NCBI GenBank assembly: GCA_965153455.1
Contig: OZ234493.1
Coordinates: 5,332,001-5,396,000 of the forward strand
Reading direction: 5' to 3'
Source of the DNA: Sphagnum compactum
Taxonomy: Eukaryota
Length of the DNA stretch: 64,000 nucleotides
The position numbers and the translations under genes are program-made. Positions 38,991 to 54,900 of this stretch are shown one piece after another. Each line of letters starts with the position of its first letter. Position 1 is the stretch's first letter. The notes below the pieces were generated by a model, which ran no database searches, was not told the origin of the DNA, and was given only the letters and a program-made list of their open reading frames with translations.

Positions 38991-41900
38991 ATTGAAGCAA
39001 TCATACATTTTGGAATAATTTTCAAAGGTTAAAACTAGAAGGTCTTGAATGGCCATTGCATTCATGTTTACAAATTTGTAATAATTGTATTTTTTTGGTT
39101 TTAATCAACAAGCACTATACCCTAGTGATTATAGTTGATAAACAAAGAAAAAAGTTTGTCCAGGTGCTACTTGACACTTAATGATAAGATGTTGGGAATT
39201 TCAAAAATACATGTCAAAACCATTTCAAGAACACAAAACTTTTACTTGTGTAGCCTATGTAAGCATCTATATTTTGTCCACAGTGTATACATACGTAGGG
39301 AACACAAAGCCCATGTGGTTTGGCACATATTTGTGTTATTTGTTTTAGAAAAAAAATTTCATGTGAGACGATGAATTTGTGTCAAGAAATGATTTTTTTG
39401 GGTGTGATAATTTTCATTGATTTGTGATTTAGAAAGAAAGTTGGTGCGACATGGTTAGATAATTTGAATGCAAACTTTATAAATCATGAAAGATGATGAA
39501 ATTGTTTGGGAAGAAAAATCTTTTTCAAAGAAAATTATGGTATATGACGACGTTTCATTATTTTGTGAAATTTTTTGAAAAAAATTGTGTTTTTTCCAAT
39601 GTAAATACTTAATTGTGCTTTTTTAAAAGCAAAAAAATGCCACATTAGAGAAATTAAAAATTCAACATTTGGCATTCATTATTCCAATGTCACAATAGTG
39701 TTTTGGAATCTTGTTGCAAGCTTCCATAACCATTTCTTTGATGAAAACATGATCCATCAATGTGCATTGGATTCCATTTCAATTTGATTTGCCCTAACTA
39801 TAACTAGCCATATAATCCTTTTCTTTCCTTCATATTTATAGTGAACCAATTTCTCATAATGTTTTTCCCACGAGGCAATCTTCATGGATTTCGTTTCACA
39901 TTTGCATTTTGATATTGTCATCTAGAGCACCTTTCACATGGGGAGCTTTTGTTAGGATGACACCTATTACACATTTAGGTTTGGTTCTACATCACTTTAC
40001 AATTGTGTCCTATAATGTTATATGATTCATCCAATTCCACTGCATCCCTTCACATCCATAAATATTGTGCCCCAATTCAGGATTTGGAAAAATTCCACCC
40101 ATTCCACTTCAACCCACTACCCTACAATTGTCCAAATTCCATGTGACTTGACAATGTACATATGTTTTTCAGATAATTGGATGAAATCCCATTATAACTT
40201 CCGCATCCATTTATAATGCTACATGATTTGTTTAAAACTCCAATGTAACTTTTCTAATCCACTTGCTTGGTTATCACACAATTGGTCAAATTCATTTCCT
40301 TTCTATTGTGAAACCATTGAGGTTTTTGACATGCCTGAAAAGCATCTCCATTGCACAACAGTAGAAGCATCTCCATATTAAATTTCGGATGAAATCTACA
40401 ATAAGATTGTGTTAAACTTTCTTTGGACTAATAAATATCACAAAGATACAATGATCATGACAATTGCCAAATTGTGTTAAAACACCCTTTGGGTCAATAG
40501 AAAGGACAAAGATACAATGACCATCAAAAGCATTGGTATGAAGTGTTGCTTTTGATTGGCCAACACTAATGATTGGCCCAAGTGCTAAGGTTTAAATGAT
40601 CACTCACTTTATATGTCATTTTTTCATGTTTCTGGGTGGGGATGCACAACAGTTTCAACTATATTTAAAATGATGTGCAGGTGCTTTTAATGCTATGGCC
40701 CTATTTCTCCAGATGGAATTGCAATAACTTCAAATTCAGTAAACCCACAAGTCTGAGCAAAGTGTTCAGCATTCACAATTTGACATGAGCAAAGTGACAT
40801 GCACACATGACATAAAATCTCCTGTGTAGCAGTTTCAAGGACACTGTTTGCAACAGGTTTCAGCATTTCTTGACTCACCAGCTTGGTTGTGTTTTCAACA
40901 AACTGATGACAGATAAGTTTTGAACTGAGCTATATCTACTGTAATACAAGAGCAAAGCTGTCAGCATCAAGTTACTCTTTTTGTTTCATCATAACCCTAG
41001 ATAGGTCACTGAAATTCATGTGTACCTCCACCAGCTTCTGAAGGTTTTGGTCTGTTCACCTTCTGAGATCTCCTGTGTTTCATATGCCAAGTGCGAAACC
41101 AGCACCTGGAAACAATGGGTAAAACTTCTGATTGAGAAAGTTGTACACTGGAATACACCTGAGTCAAGTCTAGTATGGAACCCTACTTAATCAAAGAGCT
41201 ATCTCAACATTTGTCTTTGCTCTATCATGCTAAACAACAAACACATTTCTACAACAGTTCAATTAGTTGTCTTGCACTATACAGTATTACCACAAGGGAT
41301 CCAAAACAACATAAACCAAGAGTGGTTTTGAGGGTACTCACATCATTAGCCATGGGTATAGGCTGAAGGGAACTGATAGAGAACCCACTCTGCTTACAGA
41401 TCCAGAAGGCTACTGCTATCTATGGATTGCTTTTGATAGGATGAAGATGAAGATGATTATTTTCTCCATCCAGTGAGCCTCTGTCATTCAGATGCAAAAT
41501 ACACAAATCCAGAGGGCCATCAGAAAGATAAGAGACTAGTGAATTGCACAAAGACAACTTCAAAGCTGACATTCACTTGGCTACAGACCAAAAGATAATA
41601 TGTCTGAGCTCAACTAATTTCCAAGATGTGACATCCCTGCTACCACAGCTTCCAAAACTACCTTGGTCACATATTTTAAATATCTCCATTCCAAATGAGC
41701 ATGGCATCACTCTTCATTGCACTAGAAAAACAATCTAAGAGCGTACCACCAAAGTGGACCGCATACATAGTTCCAAGCCTAGAGGTTCAGATTAACTATC
41801 CAAATGCAAATTGGATTGTCCAGCTCACTTACAAGTGCTACTGATGAGGACCCTGGAAACAGTTCACCCAATGGTATGGCTGCCCCTGCAGTTATATCCA

Positions 41901-42306
41901 ACTCTGTGGTGAACTTTCATATCCAGCATTACCAGGGAACATGACTGTTTCCATTGGAGAGGGAACCTGTGGGTTAAGGACTTTGTCAGAAAACTGGGAA
42001 TGTACCACCTGCATGTCTTCTGTAGCTCCACTTTGACAGACCCTAGGTTCTGATCAATTATATGGTAAACTGCCACTTCACATCTAGGCAGCTTGACATT
42101 GCTGTCATACTGGGCTGCTTACCTAAAGGGACTTTAATTATAGAAGCTTGGTTGTTGAGAGGAGCAGAAACTGCACTGGGTGTAGCAATTCATTTTGGAC
42201 AATCCCAGATCCATGTTTGCTTCAACTGAAAATCAGCTAAGTAGCAATGGATGGAAAACAAGAATAAGGATGAGGTTTGACCTAATGACCTTAAGTCTCC
42301 TTGCAC

Positions 42307-45300
42307 CTAAATTAGGGGAGAACTTTCAGACTCTAAGCCTGCACTGTTGCTTGATGTTTCTTTCAATGCAGTAAGAGGGAAAGTCTGCATTGCTGGCCCT
42401 CCCAAGAGCATTTGATCCCCATCCCTTTCACTGTGTTGCTCTTCATCCATCTGTGCCTGCTTAGGAGGGTTGAGAGAGTCTCGGTCAGGACTTTTCCTGA
42501 ACAGAGAGCTCAGAGTATTGGCACGGGAGAAAGTTGGTTTTTCCAAGCCAGAAGCTTGGTTTATCATAGCCACTGTCCTGGAATGACCAAAAATCCCTTT
42601 TCTTGTGCTCTTCACTGGTGCAAGAACACTATCACCTTCTTTGTCCTTGTGAACCTGCTTTGATGATTGCCCATGCTTAGGAATCAGGTGAGAGCCAGGG
42701 GATTCGGTGTCATCACCGTGTTTAAGAATAGCACCCAGTGTCTTAGCCCGAGAGAATTTGGCATCAGAAGAAGAAGAAAGTTCTAACTCAGAGACTTCTC
42801 TAACTGTGTCCAATGTCTTTGCACGAGAGAGCTTTGATTTCTTGGCTTTCCCCACAAGGTGTGACCAAACTTCCTCTCTCTCTTTGTCCTTGCTGTTCTC
42901 CTCATTCAGCTTACTCTGCTCAGGAATCTGCAGATACACAATATTTCGGTTGTCATTTAAGTTTCCCTGCTCAGGTATCAGTCGAGGGCTGGAAGGTCTC
43001 ATCTGAGATACTTCTCTAACAGTGCCTATAGTTTTGGCACGAGAGAAAACTCCTTTCAAAGCTGAATGAGATTTGGAGTCTGAAATCTCTCTTAAGGCAC
43101 CAATTGTCCTTGCACGGGAGAGAGGTTTTGTGCCCTCCACAGGTGATGGAGCTCTGCCTCCTTTGGCACTTCTAACATCATCTTCATAAAACCGTCCCTT
43201 CCTGAATTTCAAGTTTGCACCTTGGGAGTCACCTATGGATGTTGAACCAACATCTTTTCCTTCATCTTCGTACTTTTCAGCATAAAATGTTCCCCACCGG
43301 AATATCAGTGGAGACCCTGGCGACTCTGAACCTGAATTTTCCTTGGCATTGATGAAAAAGCTGGACTGTGAGTGGTCTTGTTTTGTGGAGTCTCCGGAAG
43401 TTTGAGCTATGCCACCTTCATCTTCATCATAATCCTCATAGAAAAAACCCCGCCTAAAGATCAATGGAGAGCCAATTGATTCTGAATCTGAATGTCCACT
43501 AGCACTCCCAATTGTACTTGCACGTGACAAACAACCTTTTAAACTGCCCCCATACCATGCAATAGTTCCACTTCCCAATTCATCTTCATGACTGCCATCA
43601 TAGAACACTTGCAATCTACTAGAGCCAGGAGATTCATTGCCTGCTCCAAAAGTATCCCTACTTGAATAGTATCTCCTTAAGGAACCTTTGCTTTCTTCAT
43701 CTGTATCATCATCCTGATAGAATGTGCCTCGCCTGAAAACTAGAGGAGGACTAGGATTTTCCTCTAAGGATCCAGTGACAGAGCCCAATGTGCTTGAATG
43801 AGAAAAGCCTCTATTCACAGAGTCCACTTCTTCATCACTTTGATAGAATGTTCCCCTTCTGAAAATTAATGGAGAGCCAGGAGATTCTAGGTCCAAGGCT
43901 CTATCACTGGAGCATAATGTGCTAATCCTACAAAGAATCTTCCTGGAGGAAACCTCAGCATCAGGACCATCGTAGAACCATCCATGCATAAATGTCAAAG
44001 GAGATCCAACAGATTCTGAATTAGATGCTTCACAAGAAAGACTTGATTTCATTTGGTTGTCTTCTTCCTCTTTCTGAGCCTGAAAGAATGCTCCCCACCT
44101 AAAAGTGAGTGGAGAGTCATCTTCATCATCACTGATATCATCATCATCTTCGAGATCAACATACTCTTCTTCATCTGTATGTCTTGGTAAAGAGCCTTGC
44201 AAAGGAGTCTTACTGTCTTCAATGTCCTCCTCCTGCTCCTGGCCCTTCTCAAGGTCTGCACCACCTTCCTTCTCGTCTGAGAAATCTGGGTTTTTGTAAG
44301 CATTTCGCAAAAACACTGCTAGGTTCAAGTCTGGTTCTTTTTCTTTCTCCACAGTGTCTTTCTCCATGGCATCCTGTCCAACATGCAGGGTATTTCACAT
44401 CCATGCACAATCAGTGAGTGATTTTGAGATCCTTTAGCTGTACCAAAAGAGAACAAAGGCCAATAGAGAACAAAGGCTTGTATCTCTATAGAGATAGACA
44501 TAAATGCACATCTTTTCTCACCTCTAGGGGATAATGCTTAAATGCAGGCTCAAATCGGCTTTTGCAGTAGACATGAAAGTAAAGTGTCAAAATTGGAAGT
44601 GCGATAATAAATGGTGCAGAGGAGCAAGCTTGACTCAAATATCCCAGAACTTTTCTTTTAACAGTGGTCCCTGTATTTACTTTCACAAAAGATACAGGAC
44701 CTTGCACAAGGAACATTCCAATCAAAGTGAGATGCTCTAATATCAGTGCTGCTATGATGCGGCCATGCACATGTGGCCAGAATGCTCCTGCACTCTCATA
44801 TGTAGGGTCATAAACATTGTAGATCTGAAATTCCCATCCAGCCACGCCCCATCCATTTGTTCAGATAAGAACAATCTAATAAGAACATTCATAGTCTGTA
44901 TCAAGTAGTTTGCAGTGTCTCTATAATTTGTTGTGTTTTAATGGACGTGCATATGGACTGGAGGTGTGAACTTCATGTGGACGAAGGCCAGAACAGGGGC
45001 AAACAGTTTCCTGGTTATGTAAACTGAATCTTCTTTGTTAGATGTCAGCCTGCATCCATGATTTTTGGTTACACTCTACTCTCTAGAAGCAAATAGCAAG
45101 AAAGACTACAGTCCCTTTGGTTGACACATGAGATGCATAGTATTTCAGGTGACAACACAAAGTAAATCAACATGTAAGAGCAACTAGGTAATCTAAACAT
45201 TTAGATGCACACAGGTGCTCAATGCTAAGAAGGGATAGCAGATAAGCATGAAAAATTGAGTCACTTACCTGATGGCGATAAACAACAAACCCAAAGCCAA

Positions 45301-48300
45301 AGAACAGAACAATAAAAGGCACAATAACTGGAGATATGACTGAGTACACAAGACCCATCAAGAAGTAAAGCTCCAGCTGGGGAAGTGATTCATCCAGACT
45401 GATTGTGCCCGGGGAAGTTGCCCGCAATCTGTCTCTCTCTGTTTTGACAAAGAAAAAGTTTCTTATGTGGTACATGATCAATGGCCAAAAACGCAGAAGT
45501 TCCCCAGCCGGAATAGACCAAGCATCTAACATAATATAAGTGATGAAGAAATTTGCCCTCTGAGGAATGGATTTTGCAAGTGCTTGCACAAAACTGTCAA
45601 CATCATGGGAAACATATCAGTTAGTATTTATTCATCTGTCTTCACTGTCCAGGAGTGTAGGAGAGCTCTGACAAGAGAACACCAGAGCAAAACTTTTTTT
45701 GGTGGAAGTGCACTCCACTGGTGGGTTTTTCCTATTAGGTTCTGTCTGAAGGATATGTCAACGAAAAGTTGCAGATCCCTCAAGGCTCGGAGCTTAAGGG
45801 ATTGTCTCAAGATGCCCATCTAAATTGATGCAGTTACATAGTTGCTCTTTGACAATTGGAGAAAGGCTTTCTACAGAGGTGTGCACTACATATCAATTAC
45901 AGATACTGTCCTGGTCACAAGAAATTGAAAGCTAGTCTTCACATGTACATAGGAGAACACCCTAGCAATTATCCGTCAAAGATGTGCAAAATGACTAACA
46001 GAGACATGAATATGACATCATACAACAACATCAGAGAGCCAGGCCACACACCCAAGAGCTGTTGTTGAAGAAACAAAGGTTTTGAGCTGCTGAAAGGCAG
46101 ACCCACTCAAGATGCTGCCGAAGAAAACATTCACCACCATAAAATAGTAAAACTTTGCTGCTGCCCTTCTTTCAAGCTTTGAAATAGCCAGGTGACCCTC
46201 AATCTTTGATACTACCATAAGAATTCTTGGGAGCAGCCATAAAAAAGCTTTGAGGATAAGGCCAGGTAGGAAACCCTGGACAAACAATGAGACAAAGCGC
46301 CTGCATGCTTCAAGCCCACAAAAGACCCATGCTTAGATATCTTTCTATGACACCATATGTCTTGCATTGGCAGACTAAAAATGTGAAGCATGTCAAACCC
46401 ACATGATTCTTCAGCTAGTAACTACACCCAGAGATGGAATTCGGTGGCTTCATTGACAGACCCCAACCTTACAATCTTTTGCAGGAGACATGTTCTAAAG
46501 TTTGAGCCAGCATTTCAATCATCGCAGCATGGAGATTAGAGAGAGAGAGAGAGTTTGGATACTCACTTTCGGACAAACCCATCAAGTGAGGGAGATATTT
46601 TTTGGATTCCCTGAAGATTTGCCAATGACTGCACAGTTACAATAGGGATCATGTAAAAAAACACGAGCAGGAAAACCACCACACCCATTGCCAGACTACG
46701 AAACCCAAGCTCAACATGGGGAATGGCCAAATTTGCCCACACAACATCTCTTGGTTCAGGTGCCCAGTCAGTGAGCCATATTGTTGGGTCTTGATTCTGC
46801 TGTGTCTGGGCACATACAGCAGCTCCCCACCGAGTCTTGAAAGAAACAAAAGCAGCTGGCATTGTAGCTTTTGGATCTTGCATGATCAGTTCACGCTCAG
46901 CCTCTGCCTGGAGTGAATGGAAAACAGAATCTCAGTTCAAGAAGGAAGTGATTGCAGAGATTGAAGACCTAGTCACAACCGTTCCAAATGATTCTAGTTC
47001 TCAGGATTGTCTCATTGTAGGTGGTCAGCTTTGTTCTACAGAGAGGATAACTAAGAGGAGATAGTTCTCTTGGGTCACATAACTATCAGCATATGGACAA
47101 GTGATGTCCAGAGTATAGATCTTTTTCTACTTGCGATTATGTGCTCTCTATACCTTGCTCTGTTGTGCAATTTGCAAAATGTTTTTATATTTCTTAAGCT
47201 TCTAGCATATAGTCCAATTGCAGCAGGATTCAGGTAGGAGGGTTACACCCTGAGCCACCCTGTGACCCTGAGGGTCAAGAAAAAAACCTAAACTTCCTAC
47301 CCATCTTCTGATCAGGGATCCTAGGTGGAGAGGAAGCTCTACTGTTCCTCTACAAGAACAGCAGTAGGATAATGAAGAAGAGGGGTATGAAGCATATATT
47401 CTAGGCATATGACCCTGGGGGTCACCCTTGAGTTTAGAGGTTGGGGAAAATGTACCCCATCTACCTTATCCCTGCCCCAATTGCTAATTTCTTTGTTGGA
47501 AGTCATATAGCTTGCTGAACTGTGAGTAATAAGTGTTTATCCAAATTGGACTCTCAAGACATAAGAGAAAAGATTGTGTTTGACACTCACCAGCCTTGAT
47601 CCTAAAGATATGAGAAACAAGGAGGCAGGCCCATACACAGACCGTGGACCTGTTACCTGTTCTGTTAATTTTTCAATTTGTGTTGTGTAGTATTCAATGG
47701 CATCCACTTGCTGACCAAAAAGTCCACAAAAGCCTGTCTGCACAGCATCTCACACACAGGACAGAAAGTGTTACATTTCTGTGAAACAGTGTGGTATATT
47801 CAATGTGTATTTGACTGTGTGAGATGCAATCTAAATGCATATATATGCTCCACATTTACTGGGCTGCTAAACTTCACCGTCATTATTTAGCTCAAAATTG
47901 TTGCATTGGTCATATTAGGCCTGATCTTCATTGCCATCATATTGTATTGGTGGGATGACCACAGGAAACCACTAAATTTAGTTGGCATACTACAATATGA
48001 ACACTTGTGGATAGAATTTCTCTCATGTTTCCAGAAGTAACAGGAAAAATCAGCCATGATGTTGGCTCCCAATGTGCAACTGATCAGAATGCCAAATATA
48101 TCCTCATCCAACATTTTAAGCTAAAGTTCATTTGACTTTAATTTTCTCCTGTAACCAACAAACATCTGAGCAAAAGAGCAGAGAGAGGTCTGCAAAACAA
48201 GTAGTTGAAGAGTATCCAACAGAATGCATAAGTATTGACCTTTGTGGTTGGCCTTGTAGATGGAGTATGTGAATGCTTGACTTGAAAGTAAACCAACCAG

Positions 48301-50794
48301 TTCTGTGCTGCATCCCTCTTCTTTACCGTTGCATGAAGTTTGGTTGCATTGTATGCCATCTGTCCATCTCCAATATCCTAGTTTAGTCTTGATTTGTCTC
48401 TTGCAGCTCAATGATCACCATAACACCCTCTCCTCTCTAATAATGTAGCTTCAGCCCCATTCCAGAACCGAAGATACCTTCCATCTGAGGTTCATATTGC
48501 TGTTATCAAAAATCCCACTAGCTCTGAACCCCACTGGGAAACATAATATTAAATAAAACCAAGAAGAAAGACAGCATTGCTACAGACTTCCTTGGCATCC
48601 TAAAGATGCAGGAGATATTTCTCACAGAGCTACCTTTTTCAAACTCGTCACTCATATGCCATTATTGACTCTCCTAATCCTACATGACTTGAAAAAGCCA
48701 AAGAAAGTTGCAAATCTACATACTTGATGTGTAAGGTAAGAATCTGGATGGTTCTTAAGGAAGTAGCTCTCAACCCGAGTACTGATGGGTTCTTTCCCCA
48801 CATCTGGGACCTGGCGAACCATCACCTGCAACCAGCCAAATTTGCACAGCCCTCTTTATCAGTTCTCCTGTGACTCAGGATCCTCACAACAAGCAGGTTT
48901 CACACCAGACCCAGTCAGCAAGCGTTTACAGAGAGCTCATTCATCTACCTTCACCATAATCAAGCATCACTGGTTGCCATGAGAGAGAAACCCCCTACAC
49001 TGATTGGCTTGCTATCAAGCACAGATTCATTCAGTCAGTAGAAAGCACATATCATATTAAATTAGTGAAAATGACATTAGTGCACAGTTTGGTTATAAGA
49101 TTGACAGCTATGGGCCAGAGTGGCAAATCCCATGGCTCCAGAAAAAGGAATTATCTCAGTTCAGAACTGGTTGCATTGCTGGGCAAACCTGATCCCTCTA
49201 CAACTTCACCATTTGACTTTGTCATATCTGGACTGCTCTTAGGATCATGTCTCTCAGCTGGCACATAATTACTAGACAATCCTCTGGAACTGTACAACTG
49301 CCTTTGTTGCATTTTTCTGACATCATTTATCCAATCCAGTTCATCCTCATAGCAGGATGAAATAAACACCCTACACTGATTGGCTTGATGGACAGCTCAG
49401 ATTTGTTCAGCCAGTACAAAACAACTGTCATCTTAAAGTAGTGAAACATGACATCGGTCCCCAATTTGGCTAGAAGGGGTGGAAACCTACTGTAAATTGG
49501 TCAGGCCGTCGCTTTTCACTTTTAAGAAAAGAAAGGCGCAAAGCTACAATACTCTTGTACTCCATGAAGAGAATGAAACAGGTCCAAGCTGTGAACACAT
49601 AAGACATTACCAAGTGCGCCCAAAGCCTGAACCAAGCAGATCACAAGAACCAAAATCAATCTGCCATTTACCAAACAACTGCAGTTGATTTTCTAGACCA
49701 CTCTTGTTAACAATAAAACTTCACTTATGGATTGCCAGATGAAAATCATGAGAAATAAACAAAACCTTAGCTCAGAGTTAGGACCTCCAAACCTTATCAT
49801 CCTGGATGATAGCAAACACTATCCAGATAATGCACAAGCAAGTACTTCACAGCAGAATAGTGTAGACGGACCTCATTGACCGCTTAGACACATTTGACAT
49901 GGAAAGCCTGTCAATGCTGCTGTCTACCCAATCTGAGTTAACTGAGGCTCCTCCTCCTACATTTATAGGGACCAGGATTGCAAAGCCCAGAATCATCACA
50001 GGAACAAATATCTTCAACCTGCCACATTCAGAACAGCTCCCCATCATTAGCTTCCCTTCCATTCTCTATGTGAGTACCTGAAGATGCATATTCAAGAGAC
50101 TGCATATCAACTTTTTAAGAATGTGGCCAGCACCTGAATCATCACTGCACTTCTGATGCTAGATCACCCAACTGAATAGAATCAACAATGGACCACCTTT
50201 CCTCCTACCCTAACCTTCACTTCCCCTCCCCTCACCAAACTTAAGACAGCTAATATGAAGAGGATTTAGAGCACATGAGAGTGGACGAAAGTAAAAGAGG
50301 ATCATCAAACTGAACTACACATGGGAAAAACAGGGGAGAGGGTGAGGTTGAGGATAGGACTGGGGGTTTGTTGGGGGGGACGGGGAAGGAGGCTCAGCAG
50401 GGGGTTGTCAAGGAGAAGAACCACGCAAAAAAAACTCTTGTCCATGAAAGTGAAAATTGATGGATGCTCACCCAACCAAATAGATGTGGAGATAGACTGC
50501 AGAATCCAAGCCTGCATGCTTGATAATCTCCTCTTCAGTCTTCCGAAGTGCTGATCTTGCCCAGTGGAAAACCCTGAGATATTGATATATGTCCATGTTG
50601 AAATATACACCTCTATGTTTCAGCTGGGGTGGACCATATGGTCTACGCTTTCGAATGCCTTTAAGATACAACTTGGGATAATATACGCGATCATTGATCG
50701 GCTGCACACTGAATACAATAAACCCAAGGAGAAACACACTTGTGATACCAATGTTGAAGAGGGCAGACACACCTATCTCTTGAAGTGTCGTCAT
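42307..50794 (-). CDS. OSCA1/CSC1 (TMEM63/ERD4 family) mechanosensitive cation channel with a very long repeat-containing C-terminal tail, 11 exons, about 1397 aa
   Basis: Exons 50794-50472, 50018-49872, 49626-49491, 48825-48724, 48359-48240, 47737-47657, 46907-46567, 46300-46052, 45593-45269, 44824-44522 and 44373-42307; all introns GT-AG; 4194 nt in frame. Motifs QPINDRVYYPKLY, HAGLDSAVYL, LWAHLVMSY, RRPDQFTV, PAAFVSFKTRWGAAVCAQTQQ, WAPEPRDVVWANL, FFITYIMLD..AGELLR, YESAGAFWPHVHGR and AMEKDT...LRNAY.NP.F. Confidence 0.95.
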
Positions 50795-53749: not shown

Positions 53750-54900
53750 CCAAAATTTTCCCCTCCTACCTTCCTCTCTCCCTCACCTCATTTCCCGCTC
53801 ATTCCATCTCGAGAGCTCCTGAGCTTGAGTAGCACAGAACTTCGAAGAGACGTGACACAAAAGGCTTGAGGAACGTGAAGAGCTCAACATTTAAAGAATG
53901 TGGAGAGGAGAAGGCAAGAGGAACGCTTCATCTCAAATGCAGAAATGAGAGAAGAAAGGTAAGTTCCCTCCTTTCTTTTCATTTTTTTCTTCTCCATGGT
54001 TTTTTTTTCTTTTCTTCTACTTGAGAAGAAAAGACACTATTGTTTTCTTCTTTCATTTTTTTGTTTTTGTTTGAAGCGAAGAAGGTGATGACATAAGCGT
54101 GTCGTTGCCTTTTTTCCTCTATTTTTTGTGGCGAACAAGGCGACGACAACAAGCTGGTTACCATCCCAAAATTTTCCCCTCCTACCTACCTCCCTCTTAC
54201 CTACCTTCCCCCCCTCCTACCTCCTTCCTACCTACCTACTTCACCTCATTTTACGCTCACTCTATCGTTAGAGCTCGTGAGAGCTTGAAGTGCAAGGGCA
54301 TAATTAAGAGCCAAAAGTGGGAAGGCAGAAATGGCAACCAAGAAAAAACGTTTAAAACGAAAGGGCAGAAGTGGGAGGGCAGAAGAGGGAGGGTAGAACT
54401 AGGAGCCAGAAGTGGGAGGGCAGAAGTGGCAGCCAGGAGAAAACGTTTAAAACAGAAGGGCAGAAGCGAGAGGGCAGAAGCGGGAGCCAAAAGTGAGAGG
54501 GCGGAGTGGGAACTTGAAGGTAAGCTCCCTCCCTTCTCTTGGTTTTTTTTTGTTGTTTTCTTGTGTGTTTTGTCTTCTCTGTGTTGGAGAAGAAGAAAAC
54601 AATGTTAATGCGCCATTGTTTTGTTATGTGGTGTTGCAACAAAAAGGGCGACGACAATAAGTTTATGTTTGAGAAGAAGAAGACGACAATGTGTCGTTGT
54701 CTTCTTTTGTGGTGGTGTTGCAACAAAAAAAACGATAACAACTTGTTGTCGTTAACTTCTTCTGTGTTAGAGAAGAAGAAGACAATGACAATGCACCATC
54801 ATCTTCTTTTGTGGTGTTGTTGTAGCGAAGAAAGTGACAATAGCTTGTTGTCGTCGCCTTCTTCTTTGTCTTTGAAACAAAGAAAAAGATGACGGCGTTG
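53750..54900. repeat. Low-complexity/composite repeat, probably a non-autonomous TE
   Basis: Duplicated CCCAAAATTTTCCCCTCCTACCT...GAGCTC(C/G)TGAG block at about 53750 and 54165. Reiterated GCAGAAGTGGGAG units at 54310-54520. Three ~60-120-bp AGAAGAAGAAGAC...GTGTTGCAAC units at 54585-54890. Confidence 0.6.

What the first reader, a model, noticed from the sequence alone, without database searches (positions are those of the whole stretch)
42307..44373. OSCA mechanosensitive channel with a ~690-aa cytoplasmic tail built from an apparently undescribed repeat module
Seen: the last exon begins with the normal OSCA1 end (DAMEKDT...LRNAYKNPDF) and then stays open for 688 codons. It is acidic and Ser-rich, punctuated every ~30-55 aa by a conserved motif: SPLTFRWGAFF (about 44081-44116), SPLTFMHGWFY (about 43970-44005), SPLIFRRGTFY (about 43841-43877), PPLVFRRGTFY (about 43713-43750), SPLIFRRGFFY (about 43435-43472), SPLIFRWGTFY (about 43279-43315) and ANLKFRKGRFY (about 43183-43220). 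Decayed copies are SRLQVFY, SPRLIP, SHLIP and the terminal ESSPLI. Linkers are highly diverged while the motif is kept, which suggests selection on the motif. Known: OSCA1 channels are typically about 770 aa with a tail of roughly 100 aa after this splice site. Inference: a multivalent docking or scaffold tail coupling an osmo/mechano-gated Ca2+ channel to a partner or condensate, possibly bryophyte-specific.
Basis: partly seen in the sequence, partly recalled or inferred. Interest (0 to 1): 0.8.

Follow-up and report, generated by a model that had tools for sequence, protein, structure and literature searches.

The report
Moss OSCA channel with long repeat tail
A moss gene for an osmotic and mechanical stress ion channel carries a real, transcribed, about 650-residue floppy tail. 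The tail is studded with two kinds of conserved short motifs, found only in a few moss relatives and of unknown function, though it looks like a phosphorylation-controlled docking region.

Summary
Window 42307-44373 (- strand) is the last of 11 exons of an OSCA1-type channel gene (1397 aa). After the normal OSCA C-terminal helix the frame stays open for 657 further codons.

- **Transcription:** metatranscriptome contigs from moss and plant samples show all ten GT..AG introns removed, the 44522-to-44373 splice, and unbroken cover of the exon. No joint was reported inside it.
- **Motifs:** the tail holds seven copies of S-P-L-x-F-x-x-G-x-F-[FY] (0.0006 expected by shuffling).
- **Selection:** synonymous sites between copies are saturated (pS 0.77 against pN 0.24). 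Motif residues are 58-68% identical in the three longest distant relatives, against 29-34% for linkers. Tail dN/dS is 0.38-0.50, against 0.12-0.30 for the core.
- **Structure and relatives:** AlphaFold predicts disorder. Pfam, PDB and the ESM Atlas give nothing. Searches of 1.84 and 5.8 billion proteins found seven distinct relatives, and every one that reaches the N-terminal end starts at the OSCA C-terminal end.

It is a new variant of a known channel family. A phosphorylation-tuned, multivalent docking tail is the best reading, but it is inferred and not shown.

The parts
50472..50794 (-). Exon 1 of the OSCA gene (start codon at 50792-50794); RSN1_TM
   Evidence: ORF and Pfam RSN1_TM E 1.6e-15; joint 50018/50472 in RNA contigs; model assembled
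49872..50018 (-). Exon 2; RSN1_TM
   Evidence: RNA joints; Pfam E 1.8e-08
49491..49626 (-). Exon 3
   Evidence: RNA joints; frame kept
48724..48825 (-). Exon 4; start of the PHM7_cyt cytosolic domain
   Evidence: RNA joints; Pfam PHM7_cyt E 0.008, below the cut-off on this piece alone
48240..48359 (-). Exon 5; PHM7_cyt
   Evidence: RNA joints; Pfam E 6.6e-05
47657..47737 (-). Exon 6; PHM7_cyt
   Evidence: RNA joints in X1 and X5; Pfam E 8.7e-07
46567..46907 (-). Exon 7; end of PHM7_cyt and start of RSN1_7TM
   Evidence: RNA joints; Pfam E 1.4e-13
46052..46300 (-). Exon 8; RSN1_7TM
   Evidence: RNA joints; Pfam E 1e-19
45269..45593 (-). Exon 9; RSN1_7TM
   Evidence: RNA joints; Pfam E 3.6e-34; PDB 6oce OSCA1.2 E 1e-37
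44522..44824 (-). Exon 10; end of RSN1_7TM
   Evidence: RNA joints; Pfam E 2e-08
42307..44373 (-). Exon 11: 688 codons plus stop (42307-42309). Residues 710-1397 of the 1397-aa protein
   Evidence: ORF. Joint 44373/44522 in 4 of 4 runs laid. An unbroken 2994-nt RNA contig covers 41500-44375
44281..44373 (-). Conserved OSCA C-terminal end, including the C-terminal helix
   Evidence: Aligns to 6ijz residues 686-717. It is the only helix in the AF2 model, residues 23-34. 0 substitutions against L001-L004
44116..44280 (-). Strongly acidic linker (D+E 42%)
   Evidence: Composition
44083..44115 (-). Motif A copy 1 (S-P-L-x-F-x-x-G-x-F-[FY])
   Evidence: positional orthologues in P0007 and P0003
43972..44004 (-). 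Motif A copy 2
   Evidence: orthologues in P0007 and P0003
43915..43935 (-). Extra L-x-R-x-x-T site upstream of motif A copy 3 (weak motif B)
   Evidence: Read; in register with other units in alignment A4
43843..43875 (-). Motif A copy 3 (no aligned counterpart in the distant relatives)
43717..43749 (-). Motif A copy 4
   Evidence: aligned to a copy in P0003
43600..43635 (-). Decayed motif A copy (Ser/Pro lead-in kept, core eroded)
   Evidence: Read; DNA repeat family D3 member at 43613-43635
43510..43530 (-). Motif B copy 1 (phi-S-R-A-x-T-[IL]). It lies 13 residues upstream of motif A copy 5, so the two form one composite unit
43438..43470 (-). Motif A copy 5
   Evidence: orthologues in P0007, P0004 and P0008
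43282..43314 (-). Motif A copy 6
   Evidence: orthologues in P0007, P0004 and P0003
43186..43218 (-). Motif A copy 7 (variant lead-in)
   Evidence: orthologues in P0007, P0004, P0003 and P0008
43102..43122 (-). Motif B copy 2; acceptor Thr kept in 7 of 7 aligned sequences
43027..43047 (-). Motif B copy 3; acceptor Thr kept in 7 of 7
42964..42993 (-). Ser-Pro variant of the motif A lead-in without the aromatic core. Conserved as such in five relatives (P0006, P0007, P0004, P0003, P0005)
42811..42831 (-). Motif B copy 4; acceptor Thr/Ser kept in 6 of 6 aligned sequences
42736..42756 (-). Motif B copy 5; acceptor Thr and Arg at -3 kept in 6 of 6
42670..42705 (-). Second decayed Ser-Pro lead-in without the aromatic core
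   Evidence: Read; reference copy of DNA repeat family D3
42511..42531 (-). Motif B copy 6 (Arg at -3 is His in the 96%-identical relative P0006)
42310..42327 (-). Last six codons, resembling the start of motif A
   Evidence: Read
41500..42306 (-). Transcribed 3' region (probable long 3' UTR)
   Evidence: RNA contigs of X2, X3 and X5 run on from the exon to 41500; X5's holds 121 more letters beyond it. No ORF of 85 aa or more

Best explanation
**What it is (shown).** This is an OSCA1-type, dimeric, Ca2+-permeable mechano- and osmo-gated channel gene, most likely of a moss. It has 11 exons and encodes 1397 aa. Its last exon adds a 657-residue intrinsically disordered cytoplasmic tail after the conserved C-terminal helix. 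The tail is the eroded remnant of an old composite repeat of about 40-55 aa. Each unit has four parts in order:
1. A basic site, phi-S-R-x-x-S/T-phi.
2. A Ser/Pro-rich lead-in with S-P sites.
3. A hydrophobic-basic-aromatic core, P-L-x-F-R-R-G-x-F-Y.
4. An acidic run.

The proximal two thirds keeps mainly the aromatic cores in an acidic setting. The distal third keeps mainly the basic sites in a net-basic setting. The tail is spliced and transcribed as predicted. It is under purifying selection that is weaker than on the channel core, and that selection is concentrated on the motifs.

**How it most likely works (inferred).** The tail is a multivalent array of short linear motifs. Its state would be written by basophilic stress kinases of the CPK/SnRK2 type at the phi-x-R-x-x-T sites and by proline-directed kinases at the S-P sites. 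Phosphorylation would switch the binding of the aromatic cores and basic segments. The binding partner could be a cytosolic protein, the channel's own intracellular domain, or the membrane. The result would be tuning of gating, clustering or turnover of the osmosensor.

I put the descriptive part at about 0.9 and the phospho-switch docking mechanism at about 0.35-0.4.
For: **Gene and family**
- All ten introns are GT..AG and the CDS is 4194 nt with a single terminal stop.
- The three OSCA Pfam domains lie in order on the exons.
- The best PDB hits are OSCA1.2 and OSCA1.1 (E 1e-37 to 1e-34), against ERD4/OSCA3.1 at 1e-15.

**Expression**
- One 2894-nt metatranscriptome contig (X1) carries 1038 nt of the tail exon joined across all ten junctions.
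- A 2994-nt contig (X5) covers 41500-44375 without a break.
- No joint inside the exon was reported in 4 of 4 runs laid. X2 and X3 give identical tables and count as one data set.

**Disorder**
- The AF2 model on a 7-sequence alignment has mean pLDDT 38.7. Residues 96-650 are below 50, and the only helix is the OSCA C-terminal helix.
- A 40-aa unit folded alone gives pLDDT 86 over the 10 residues of the aromatic core, with no strand or helix there.

**Selection**
- Between copies, pS is 0.77 against pN 0.24 for motif A, and 0.53 against 0.18 for motif B.
- In the three longest distant relatives (P0007, P0004, P0003), motif residues are 58-68% identical against 29-34% for linkers (Fisher p 1.5e-6 to 5.7e-10). 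In the two short ones (P0008, P0005) the figures are 46-47% against 25-27% (p 0.012 and 0.003).
- Tail dN/dS is 0.38-0.50, below 1 at binomial p 0.034, 0.012 and 0.0014. The core gives 0.12-0.30.
- There are 0 stops and only 0 or 3 gap columns in the tail of L001-L004, against 16-38 gap columns in 3607 nt of intron.

**Kinase-site reading**
- phi-x-[RK]-x-x-[ST] occurs 12 times, against 3.2 +/- 1.7 in shuffles. [ST]-P occurs 15 times, against 6.2 +/- 2.2. In both cases 0 of 5000 shuffles reach the observed count.
- The acceptor Thr/Ser of four sites is kept in all aligned relatives.
- LXRXX(S/T) is the preferred OST1/SnRK2 site (PMC2978106, passages read). phi(-5)-x-R(-3)-x-x-S is the classic CPK motif (PMC11174488, passages read).

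**Topology**
- The OSCA C-terminus is intracellular and its C-terminal helix is part of the intracellular domain (PMC6235563, passages read).
Against: - No phosphorylation, partner or effect on the channel is shown by anything here.
- All six main acceptors are Thr, whereas the cited CPK/SnRK motifs were defined mostly on Ser.
- The residue at +2 is Gly, Asp or Ser, not Pro, so the sites do not fit the R-x-x-pS/T-x-P 14-3-3 pattern.
- The conserved stretch around several basic sites runs on for about 13 residues. That is longer than a kinase consensus and suggests a binding segment instead.
- At shallow divergence, motif codons (dN/dS 0.16-0.55) and linker codons (0.36-0.61) are not distinguishable.
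- The tail's substitution rate (2.0-2.4%) is about two thirds of the intron rate (3.05-3.17%).
- The deep motif-versus-linker contrast is measured on an alignment that the motifs themselves anchor, so it is biased upward.
- AF2 on a 7-row alignment is a weak disorder test.
- Contigs drop rare isoforms, so a minor transcript that ends or splices early is not excluded.
Confidence: 0.5

Rival explanations
1. Tolerated, nearly neutral extension. The tail is a lineage-specific disordered appendage that grew by internal duplication. It is kept open only because truncation or misfolding would be mildly harmful, and the motifs have no specific partner.
For: The tail diverges at 2.0-2.4%, against 3.05-3.17% for introns and 0.9% for core exons. 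dN/dS is 0.38-0.50. Relatives differ by large insertions and deletions, with 96-396 linker positions gapped. Disorder is predicted. No domain is found.
Against: The frame stays open for 456-802 aa in relatives that are only 33-44% identical. dN/dS is below 1 at p down to 0.0014. Motif residues are kept although synonymous sites between copies are saturated. The acceptor Thr/Ser is kept in all aligned relatives at four sites.
Confidence: 0.12
2. Membrane or tether model. The basic-aromatic cores and the basic amphipathic distal segments bind acidic lipids or another membrane. The tail would then anchor or tether the channel, loosely like the disordered tail of the TMEM16 relative Ist2. Phosphorylation and the acidic flanks would act as an electrostatic switch.
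For: Each core combines Leu/Ile/Phe/Tyr with two basic residues next to Ser-Pro sites and an acidic run. Residues 389-638 are net +17. Ist2 is an ER-resident TMEM16-type scramblase that reaches the plasma membrane through an intrinsically disordered region (abstracts in the search listing only, PMC12617493 and PMC8282664). That OSCA shares the TMEM16 fold comes from PMC6235563 (passages read).
Against: The extreme C-terminus is acidic, not polybasic: net -6 over residues 639-688 and -1 over the last seven. AF2 predicts no amphipathic helix. OSCA1 channels are plasma-membrane proteins (recalled, not tested here). No lipid-binding test was possible.
Confidence: 0.13
3. Calmodulin/CML feedback tail. 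The basic segments descend from IQ-like helices and bind Ca2+ sensors, giving the Ca2+-permeable channel direct feedback.
For: The relatives carry a helix-like element just upstream of the basic site that fits the pattern [FILV]-Q-x3-[RK]-G-x3-[RK] exactly: P0007 three times, P0003 twice, P0004 once and P0008 once. That this pattern is the IQ consensus is recalled, not taken from a call. IQ (PF00612) is the only Pfam family reported for P0007 and P0004. The window's motif B aligns with the second half of that element.
Against: The Pfam scores are far below threshold (8.9-9.3 bits against 20.3, E 1.4-1.9). The window's own tail has 0 matches to the pattern and 0 Pfam families. The several matches are repeats of one another, so they amount to one coincidence.
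Confidence: 0.1
4. Artefact: a mis-joined gene model, a read-through into a neighbouring gene, or an exonised mobile element.
For: No annotated full-length protein with this tail was found among proteins of 1218-3475 aa.
Against: A single RNA contig joins the tail to all the upstream exons. The OSCA end and the tail lie in one ORF in the window, in L001-L004 and in P0003, P0006, P0007 and P0008. There is no second copy of the tail DNA or protein elsewhere in the window. Only 4 hits turned up in 1.84 billion representatives, unlike a mobile element.
Confidence: 0.02

Closest known systems
Canonical plant OSCA1.1/OSCA1.2 channels (solved structures 6ijz, 6mgv, 6jpf, 6oce)
   Same: Same three-domain core (RSN1_TM, PHM7_cyt, RSN1_7TM). 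Exon 9 matches at E 1e-37 to 1e-34. Same C-terminal helix and end motif, aligned to residues 686-737 of a 771-aa chain. The C-terminus is cytoplasmic (PMC6235563).
   Different: The canonical chains are 771-774 aa and have 54 residues after the aligned end motif. This protein has 657. The repeat profile finds nothing in any PDB chain at E up to 10.
Unannotated relatives P0003, P0004, P0007, P0008, P0005 and the near-identical P0006 and L001-L004
   Same: All that reach the N-terminal end begin at the same OSCA C-terminal end in the same ORF. They carry the same motifs in the same order.
   Different: P0007, P0004 and P0003 have an inserted block of extra helix-like repeats that fit the recalled IQ pattern and that the window lacks (alignment columns about 300-500). 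The window has two aromatic-core copies with little or no counterpart in them.
Yeast Ist2 (TMEM16-type protein with a long disordered tail that tethers ER to plasma membrane)
   Same: A member of the wider TMEM16/OSCA structural superfamily that carries a long disordered cytosolic C-terminal region holding a short partner-binding motif (abstracts in the listing).
   Different: No sequence relation. The window's tail ends in an acidic stretch, not a lipid-binding basic one. The analogy is of architecture only.
Multi-site LXRXX(S/T) substrates of SnRK2/CPK kinases such as ABF3
   Same: Several conserved phi-x-R-x-x-S/T sites lie in a disordered region.
   Different: In ABF3 one site lies in an R-x-x-S/T-x-P 14-3-3 motif (PMC2978106). 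Here no site has Pro at +2. No phosphorylation is shown.

Membership tests
OSCA/TMEM63/CSC1 channel family | RSN1_TM, PHM7_cyt and RSN1_7TM domains in that order | tested here: met
   Found piecewise on the exon ORFs, in order. RSN1_TM E 1.6e-15, PHM7_cyt E 1.4e-13, RSN1_7TM E 3.6e-34. The spliced protein could not be scanned whole.
OSCA/TMEM63/CSC1 channel family | Mechanically or hyperosmolality-activated cation conductance | not testable with these tools
   Needs electrophysiology.
OSCA1 clade | Closer to OSCA1.x than to OSCA2/3/4 members | tested here: met
   Exon 9 gives OSCA1.2/1.1 at E 1e-37 to 1e-34, ERD4 (OSCA3.1) at 1e-15 and HYP1 at 3.7e-14. This is best-hit evidence on one exon only; no tree was built.
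OSCA1 clade | Conserved C-terminal helix and end motif, followed by a short tail | tested here: not met
   The helix and end motif are present. The tail is 657 aa instead of 54, which is what makes this a variant.
IQ calmodulin-binding motif (PF00612) | Match to the Pfam IQ profile, or to the pattern [FILV]-Q-x3-[RK]-G-x3-[RK] (recalled as the IQ consensus) | tested here: not met
   Window tail: 0 Pfam families at E up to 1 and 0 pattern matches. Relatives have 1-3 pattern matches, but Pfam gives only 8.9-9.3 bits against a cut-off of 20.3.
CPK/SnRK2 substrate sites | Hydrophobic residue at -5 and Arg at -3 of a Ser/Thr acceptor | tested here: met
   Six main copies (three with Leu and three with Phe at -5) and one more Leu copy. 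12 pattern matches against 3.2 +/- 1.7 expected. This is a sequence pattern only.
CPK/SnRK2 substrate sites | Actual phosphorylation by such a kinase | not testable with these tools
   Needs phosphoproteomics or a kinase assay.
14-3-3 mode-1 binding site | R-x-x-pS/pT-x-P, that is Pro at +2 | tested here: not met
   The +2 residue is Gly (4 copies), Asp (1) or Ser (1) in the six copies.
Ist2-like membrane tether | Long disordered linker ending in a basic lipid-binding signal at the extreme C-terminus | tested here: not met
   A disordered linker is present. The last 57 residues are net acidic.
Known repeat or domain families, or mobile elements | Significant match to Pfam, PDB or Atlas clusters, or many dispersed copies | tested here: not met
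   Pfam 0. PDB profile search 0. Atlas no usable hit. 4 hits in 1.84 billion representatives. No other copy in the window.

The most novel reading that the evidence does not exclude
A subset of mosses has equipped its OSCA1 osmosensor with a built-in signal integrator. The Ca2+ that the channel admits (through CPKs) and osmotic stress (through SnRK2s) would write a multi-site phosphate code on a 650-residue disordered tail. The array of aromatic cores would then reversibly cluster the channel or recruit effectors. This would be an adaptation or memory device for plants that dry out and rehydrate, built from a motif pair found in no other protein so far.
Probability: 0.2. Interest if true: 0.8.

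Novelty: new variant of a known kind. Interest (0 to 1): 0.55.

Why it matters
How OSCA channels are regulated and what lies downstream of them is largely open; PMC11325057 (passages read) calls the downstream effectors largely unknown. The one regulatory site mentioned there is the BIK1 site in the N-terminus of OSCA1.3.

A natural variant whose cytoplasmic end has grown twelve-fold offers a direct experimental handle. The extension is an expressed, selected array of kinase-type sites and aromatic motifs, so it can be deleted, mutated or used as bait.

It also shows that bryophyte genomes without public annotation hold channel architectures missing from the protein databases. No protein of 1218-3475 aa with this tail was found. 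The OSCA evolution survey PMC12806904 has 0 occurrences of 'C-terminal' in its main text.

Tried and rejected

- Tandem Repeats Finder found only a 3-nt/18-nt acidic-run repeat (44117-44162) inside the exon. The other row lies in intron 10. There is no array of the units. The unit copies are only 60-71% identical as DNA, so a recent DNA amplification is rejected.
- The search for homologous proteins with lengths 'longer' found no protein of 1218-3475 aa.
- The motif-profile search (A4, proteins of 71-2000 aa) returned only the four known relatives among 3084 candidates. No other protein context for the motif turned up. Single-copy carriers could not reach significance in that search.
- The ESM Atlas gave no usable hit.
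- The PDB search with the unit profile gave nothing at E up to 10.
- The search of earlier findings by place, sequence and words returned nothing that bears on this finding.

**Calls that failed and what I did next**
The 92 members of P0006's cluster and all source names remain unseen.
- No whole genome is held for the window, so paralogues in the same genome could not be sought.
- The search for related loci with the 7-row alignment failed for lack of a conserved stretch. The 3-row alignment worked.
- A 25-aa unit alignment was too short for the protein search. 40-aa units were used instead.
Those coordinates were worked out by hand.

**Not attempted or not resolved**
- Complex prediction was not used. 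No partner sequence is at hand, and I do not claim a specific binding pair.
- dN/dS of motif against linker codons among the three close haplotypes was computed, but the counts are too small to separate them.
- Parts of the exon lack contig cover in X1 (43289-43334) and in X2/X3 (42576-42645 and 43110-43599). X5 covers them.
- Lead from memory, not tested: canonical angiosperm OSCA1 tails seem to end in a basic site followed by a Ser-Pro-rich hydrophobic-Gly element. If so, the moss unit may be an amplification of that ancestral end. No canonical plant tail sequence could be fetched to test this.


Full report
**1. The observation**

The minus strand is open from 44394 to 42310, 695 codons stop to stop. 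From the splice acceptor at 44373 there are 688 codons, then a stop at 42307-42309.

The first 31 of those codons are the usual end of an OSCA channel. Residues 7-57 of the ORF align to residues 686-737 of the 771-residue OSCA1.2 chain 6ijz. A canonical channel therefore has 54 residues after the point where this protein has 657.

The invariant core L-x-F-x-x-G-x-F-[FY] occurs 7 times. In 20000 shuffles of the same residues it occurs 0.0006 times on average and never more than once. The decayed copies are also there (43600-43635, 42964-42993, 42670-42705 and the last six codons; read, with DNA repeat family D3).

**2. The gene and its transcript**

Ten joints in metatranscriptome contigs define ten GT..AG introns. 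With them the CDS is 4194 nt, 11 exons and 1397 residues, with a single terminal stop.

The exon ORFs carry RSN1_TM, PHM7_cyt and RSN1_7TM in order. Exon 9 matches OSCA1.2 and OSCA1.1 at E 1e-37 to 1e-34, against 1e-15 for ERD4.

- One 2894-nt contig of run X1 holds 1038 nt of the tail exon (43335-44372) joined through all ten junctions to 51 nt of exon 1.
- A 2994-nt contig of X5 covers 41500-44375 without a break.
- No joint inside the exon is reported in any of the 4 runs laid.
- X2 and X3 give identical tables and are best counted once.
- The contigs are 95-99% like the window, so they come from close relatives or other strains.
- The 22 runs that hold the stretch include 14 on record as RNA, labelled moss or plant metagenome, from 12 studies. 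This is my only basis for calling the organism a moss.
- Contigs drop rare variants, so a minor short isoform is not excluded.

**3. Anatomy of the tail**

Composition after the OSCA end is Ser 15.1%, Glu 9.1%, Gly 9.0% and Asp 8.1%.

- Residues 39-100 of the ORF are 42% Asp+Glu.
- Residues 39-388 are net acidic and hold all the aromatic cores.
- Residues 389-638 are net +17.
- The last 57 residues are acidic again.

It has six copies, one in the middle of the tail and five in the distal third, against 0.0002 expected. A further L-x-R-x-x-T site and two degenerate copies with His at -3 lie in register upstream of aromatic cores.

Aligning 40-residue windows around the cores puts an R/H-x-S-T-[LI] element about 14 residues upstream of the Ser-Pro lead-in in three of seven units. 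In the relatives the same order is explicit: a basic site, then the S-P lead-in, then the aromatic core, then an acidic run. The repeat is therefore a composite unit of roughly 40-55 residues. The window's tail is an eroded array of it.

There is no tandem array of the units at the DNA level. The copies of the core region are 61-71% identical as DNA.

**4. Structure**

AlphaFold2 on the 7-sequence alignment gives mean pLDDT 38.7. Its only helix is at residues 23-34, the OSCA C-terminal helix, and everything from residue 96 to 650 is below 50.

A single 40-residue unit, with the seven units as its alignment, gives pLDDT 86 over the ten residues of the aromatic core but no strand or helix there. 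This is a weak hint of a preferred local turn.

The OSCA C-terminus is intracellular, and its helix is part of the intracellular domain (PMC6235563, passages read). The tail is therefore cytoplasmic.

**5. Relatives**

- HMMER of the 657-residue tail against 1,835,955,588 representative proteins found 4 proteins at E up to 0.001.
- The word-indexed search of 5.8 billion clusters found 5 proteins of 382-1217 aa.
- It found none of 1218-3475 aa.
- A profile of the repeat unit found only four of the same proteins among 3084 candidates of 71-2000 aa.

Together these searches returned seven distinct relatives (P0002-P0008). The relatives that reach the N-terminal end (P0003, P0006, P0007, P0008) start in the OSCA C-terminal end and run on into the tail in one ORF. 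They look like last-exon ORFs called on unannotated contigs.

They fall into four groups: the window with P0006, P0007 with P0004, P0003, and P0008 with P0005. They are 33-44% identical to the window, apart from P0006 at 96%. The motifs are collinear:

- Aromatic copies 1, 2, 5, 6 and 7 have aligned counterparts. Copy 4 has one in P0003 only, and copy 3 has none.
- Basic sites 2-5 have counterparts in nearly all relatives. The acceptor Thr/Ser is kept in 7 of 7, 7 of 7, 6 of 6 and 6 of 6 aligned sequences.
- P0007, P0004 and P0003 carry an extra block of helix-like repeats that the window lacks.

**6. Selection**

Four metagenome loci (L001-L004) are 96-97% identical to the window over about 9.9 kb. 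With the window they form three haplotypes.

| Region | Substitutions against the window |
|---|---|
| Core exons 2-10 | 0.89-0.94% |
| Tail | 1.98-2.44% |
| Introns | 3.05-3.17% |
| 3' flank | 2.5-3.75% |

- The tail has 0 or 3 gap columns, against 16-38 in 3607 nt of intron.
- None of the four loci has a stop in the tail.
- dN/dS is 0.12-0.30 for the core and 0.38-0.50 for the tail.
- The tail's deficit of non-synonymous changes gives binomial p of 0.034, 0.012 and 0.0014 for the three pairs.
- At this depth, motif codons (0.16-0.55) and linker codons (0.36-0.61) cannot be separated.

Two deeper measures do separate them:

- Between the copies within the window, synonymous differences are saturated while amino acids are kept. 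pS is 0.77 against pN 0.24 for the aromatic motif, and 0.53 against 0.18 for the basic motif.
- Against the three longest distant relatives (P0007, P0004, P0003), motif residues are 58-68% identical and linker residues 29-34% (Fisher p 1.5e-6 to 5.7e-10). Against the two short ones the figures are 46-47% and 25-27% (p 0.012 and 0.003). That alignment is anchored by the motifs, so the contrast is somewhat inflated.

**7. What it is not**

- Pfam finds nothing in the tail at E up to 1.
- The unit profile finds no PDB chain at E up to 10.
- The ESM Atlas gives no usable hit.
- The tail has no second copy, as DNA or protein, elsewhere in the window.
- Four hits in 1.84 billion representatives is unlike a mobile element.
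- A mis-joined model is excluded by the RNA contig and by the shared ORF in all relatives.

**8. Mechanism**

Shown: an expressed, conserved, disordered cytoplasmic tail carrying two classes of short motifs under amino-acid-level selection.

Inferred: the basic motif fits phi(-5)-x-R(-3)-x-x-S/T.

- This is the preferred site of the SnRK2 kinase OST1 (PMC2978106, passages read).
- It is also the classic site of Ca2+-dependent protein kinases (PMC11174488, passages read).
- Such patterns occur 12 times in the tail, against 3.2 +/- 1.7 expected.
- S/T-P occurs 15 times, against 6.2 +/- 2.2 expected.

Both kinase families are switched on by the stimuli that this channel senses or produces. My best reading is therefore a phosphorylation-tuned, multivalent docking tail.

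Points against this reading:

- All main acceptors are Thr.
- None has Pro at +2, so the R-x-x-pS/T-x-P 14-3-3 pattern is not met.
- The conserved stretch around several sites is about 13 residues long. That looks more like a binding segment than a bare kinase site.

The rivals are:

- a nearly neutral appendage;
- a membrane-binding or tethering tail on the Ist2 pattern (abstracts in the listing only), which is weakened by the acidic extreme C-terminus;
- a calmodulin-binding tail.

For the calmodulin reading, the relatives match the pattern [FILV]-Q-x3-[RK]-G-x3-[RK] one to three times each. That this is the IQ consensus is recalled. The window matches it not at all, and Pfam IQ stays far below threshold.

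**9. Comparison and novelty**

[quoted passage not shown] The tail is the departure.

I found no description of it:

- the OSCA evolution survey PMC12806904 has 0 occurrences of 'C-terminal' in its main text (find);
- the listings of the searches show no paper on a long-tailed moss OSCA.

These searches cover only the held library, and supplements were not opened.

I rate it a new variant of a known kind. It is interesting to people working on plant mechano- and osmosensing because it gives a natural handle on channel regulation. It has no demonstrated function yet.

Noticed in passing
window 41500-42306 (and beyond 41500): RNA contigs of X2, X3 and X5 run on from the stop codon for more than 800 nt; X5's 2994-nt contig holds 121 more letters past 41500. 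No ORF of 85 aa or more lies there. Divergence from L001-L004 is intron-like (2.5-3.0%). It is probably an unusually long 3' UTR, or an overlapping non-coding transcript.
   Followed up: partly
window 44799-45166 and 45580-45913: Low-depth RNA contigs of X5 (depth 3.5 and 2.96, against 10.8 for the spliced contig) cover parts of introns 9 and 8. This points to unspliced pre-mRNA or some DNA in the library.
   Followed up: no
runs X2 and X3: The two runs are filed under different years, samples and studies. They give identical counts, contig lengths and depths, so they are probably one data set filed twice.
   Followed up: no
window 44443-44477: A 17-nt unit duplicated in tandem (2.1 copies, 94% matches) inside intron 10, just upstream of the tail exon.
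   Followed up: no
window about 53900-54900: A low-complexity stretch about 3 kb upstream of the gene. Long open frames on both strands are made of Lys/Glu/Arg- or Ser/Leu/Phe-rich simple repeats. It is probably a purine/pyrimidine-rich simple repeat and not a gene.
   Followed up: no
P0007 residues about 220-560, P0003 about 260-450, P0004 about 100-440: These relatives carry a block of extra helix-like repeats that end in the basic site and fit the pattern recalled as the IQ consensus. The window's tail lacks this block.
   Followed up: partly
P0008 and P0005: P0008 breaks off after the second distal basic site into unrelated sequence. P0005 starts with unrelated sequence and then carries the distal motifs. 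In that lineage the tail may be split by an intron or a frameshift.
   Followed up: no
L005:2287-2424: A metagenome contig ends 10 nt after an OSCA C-terminal end that is 78% identical to the window's. It is a more distant relative whose tail, if any, is cut off by the contig end.
   Followed up: no
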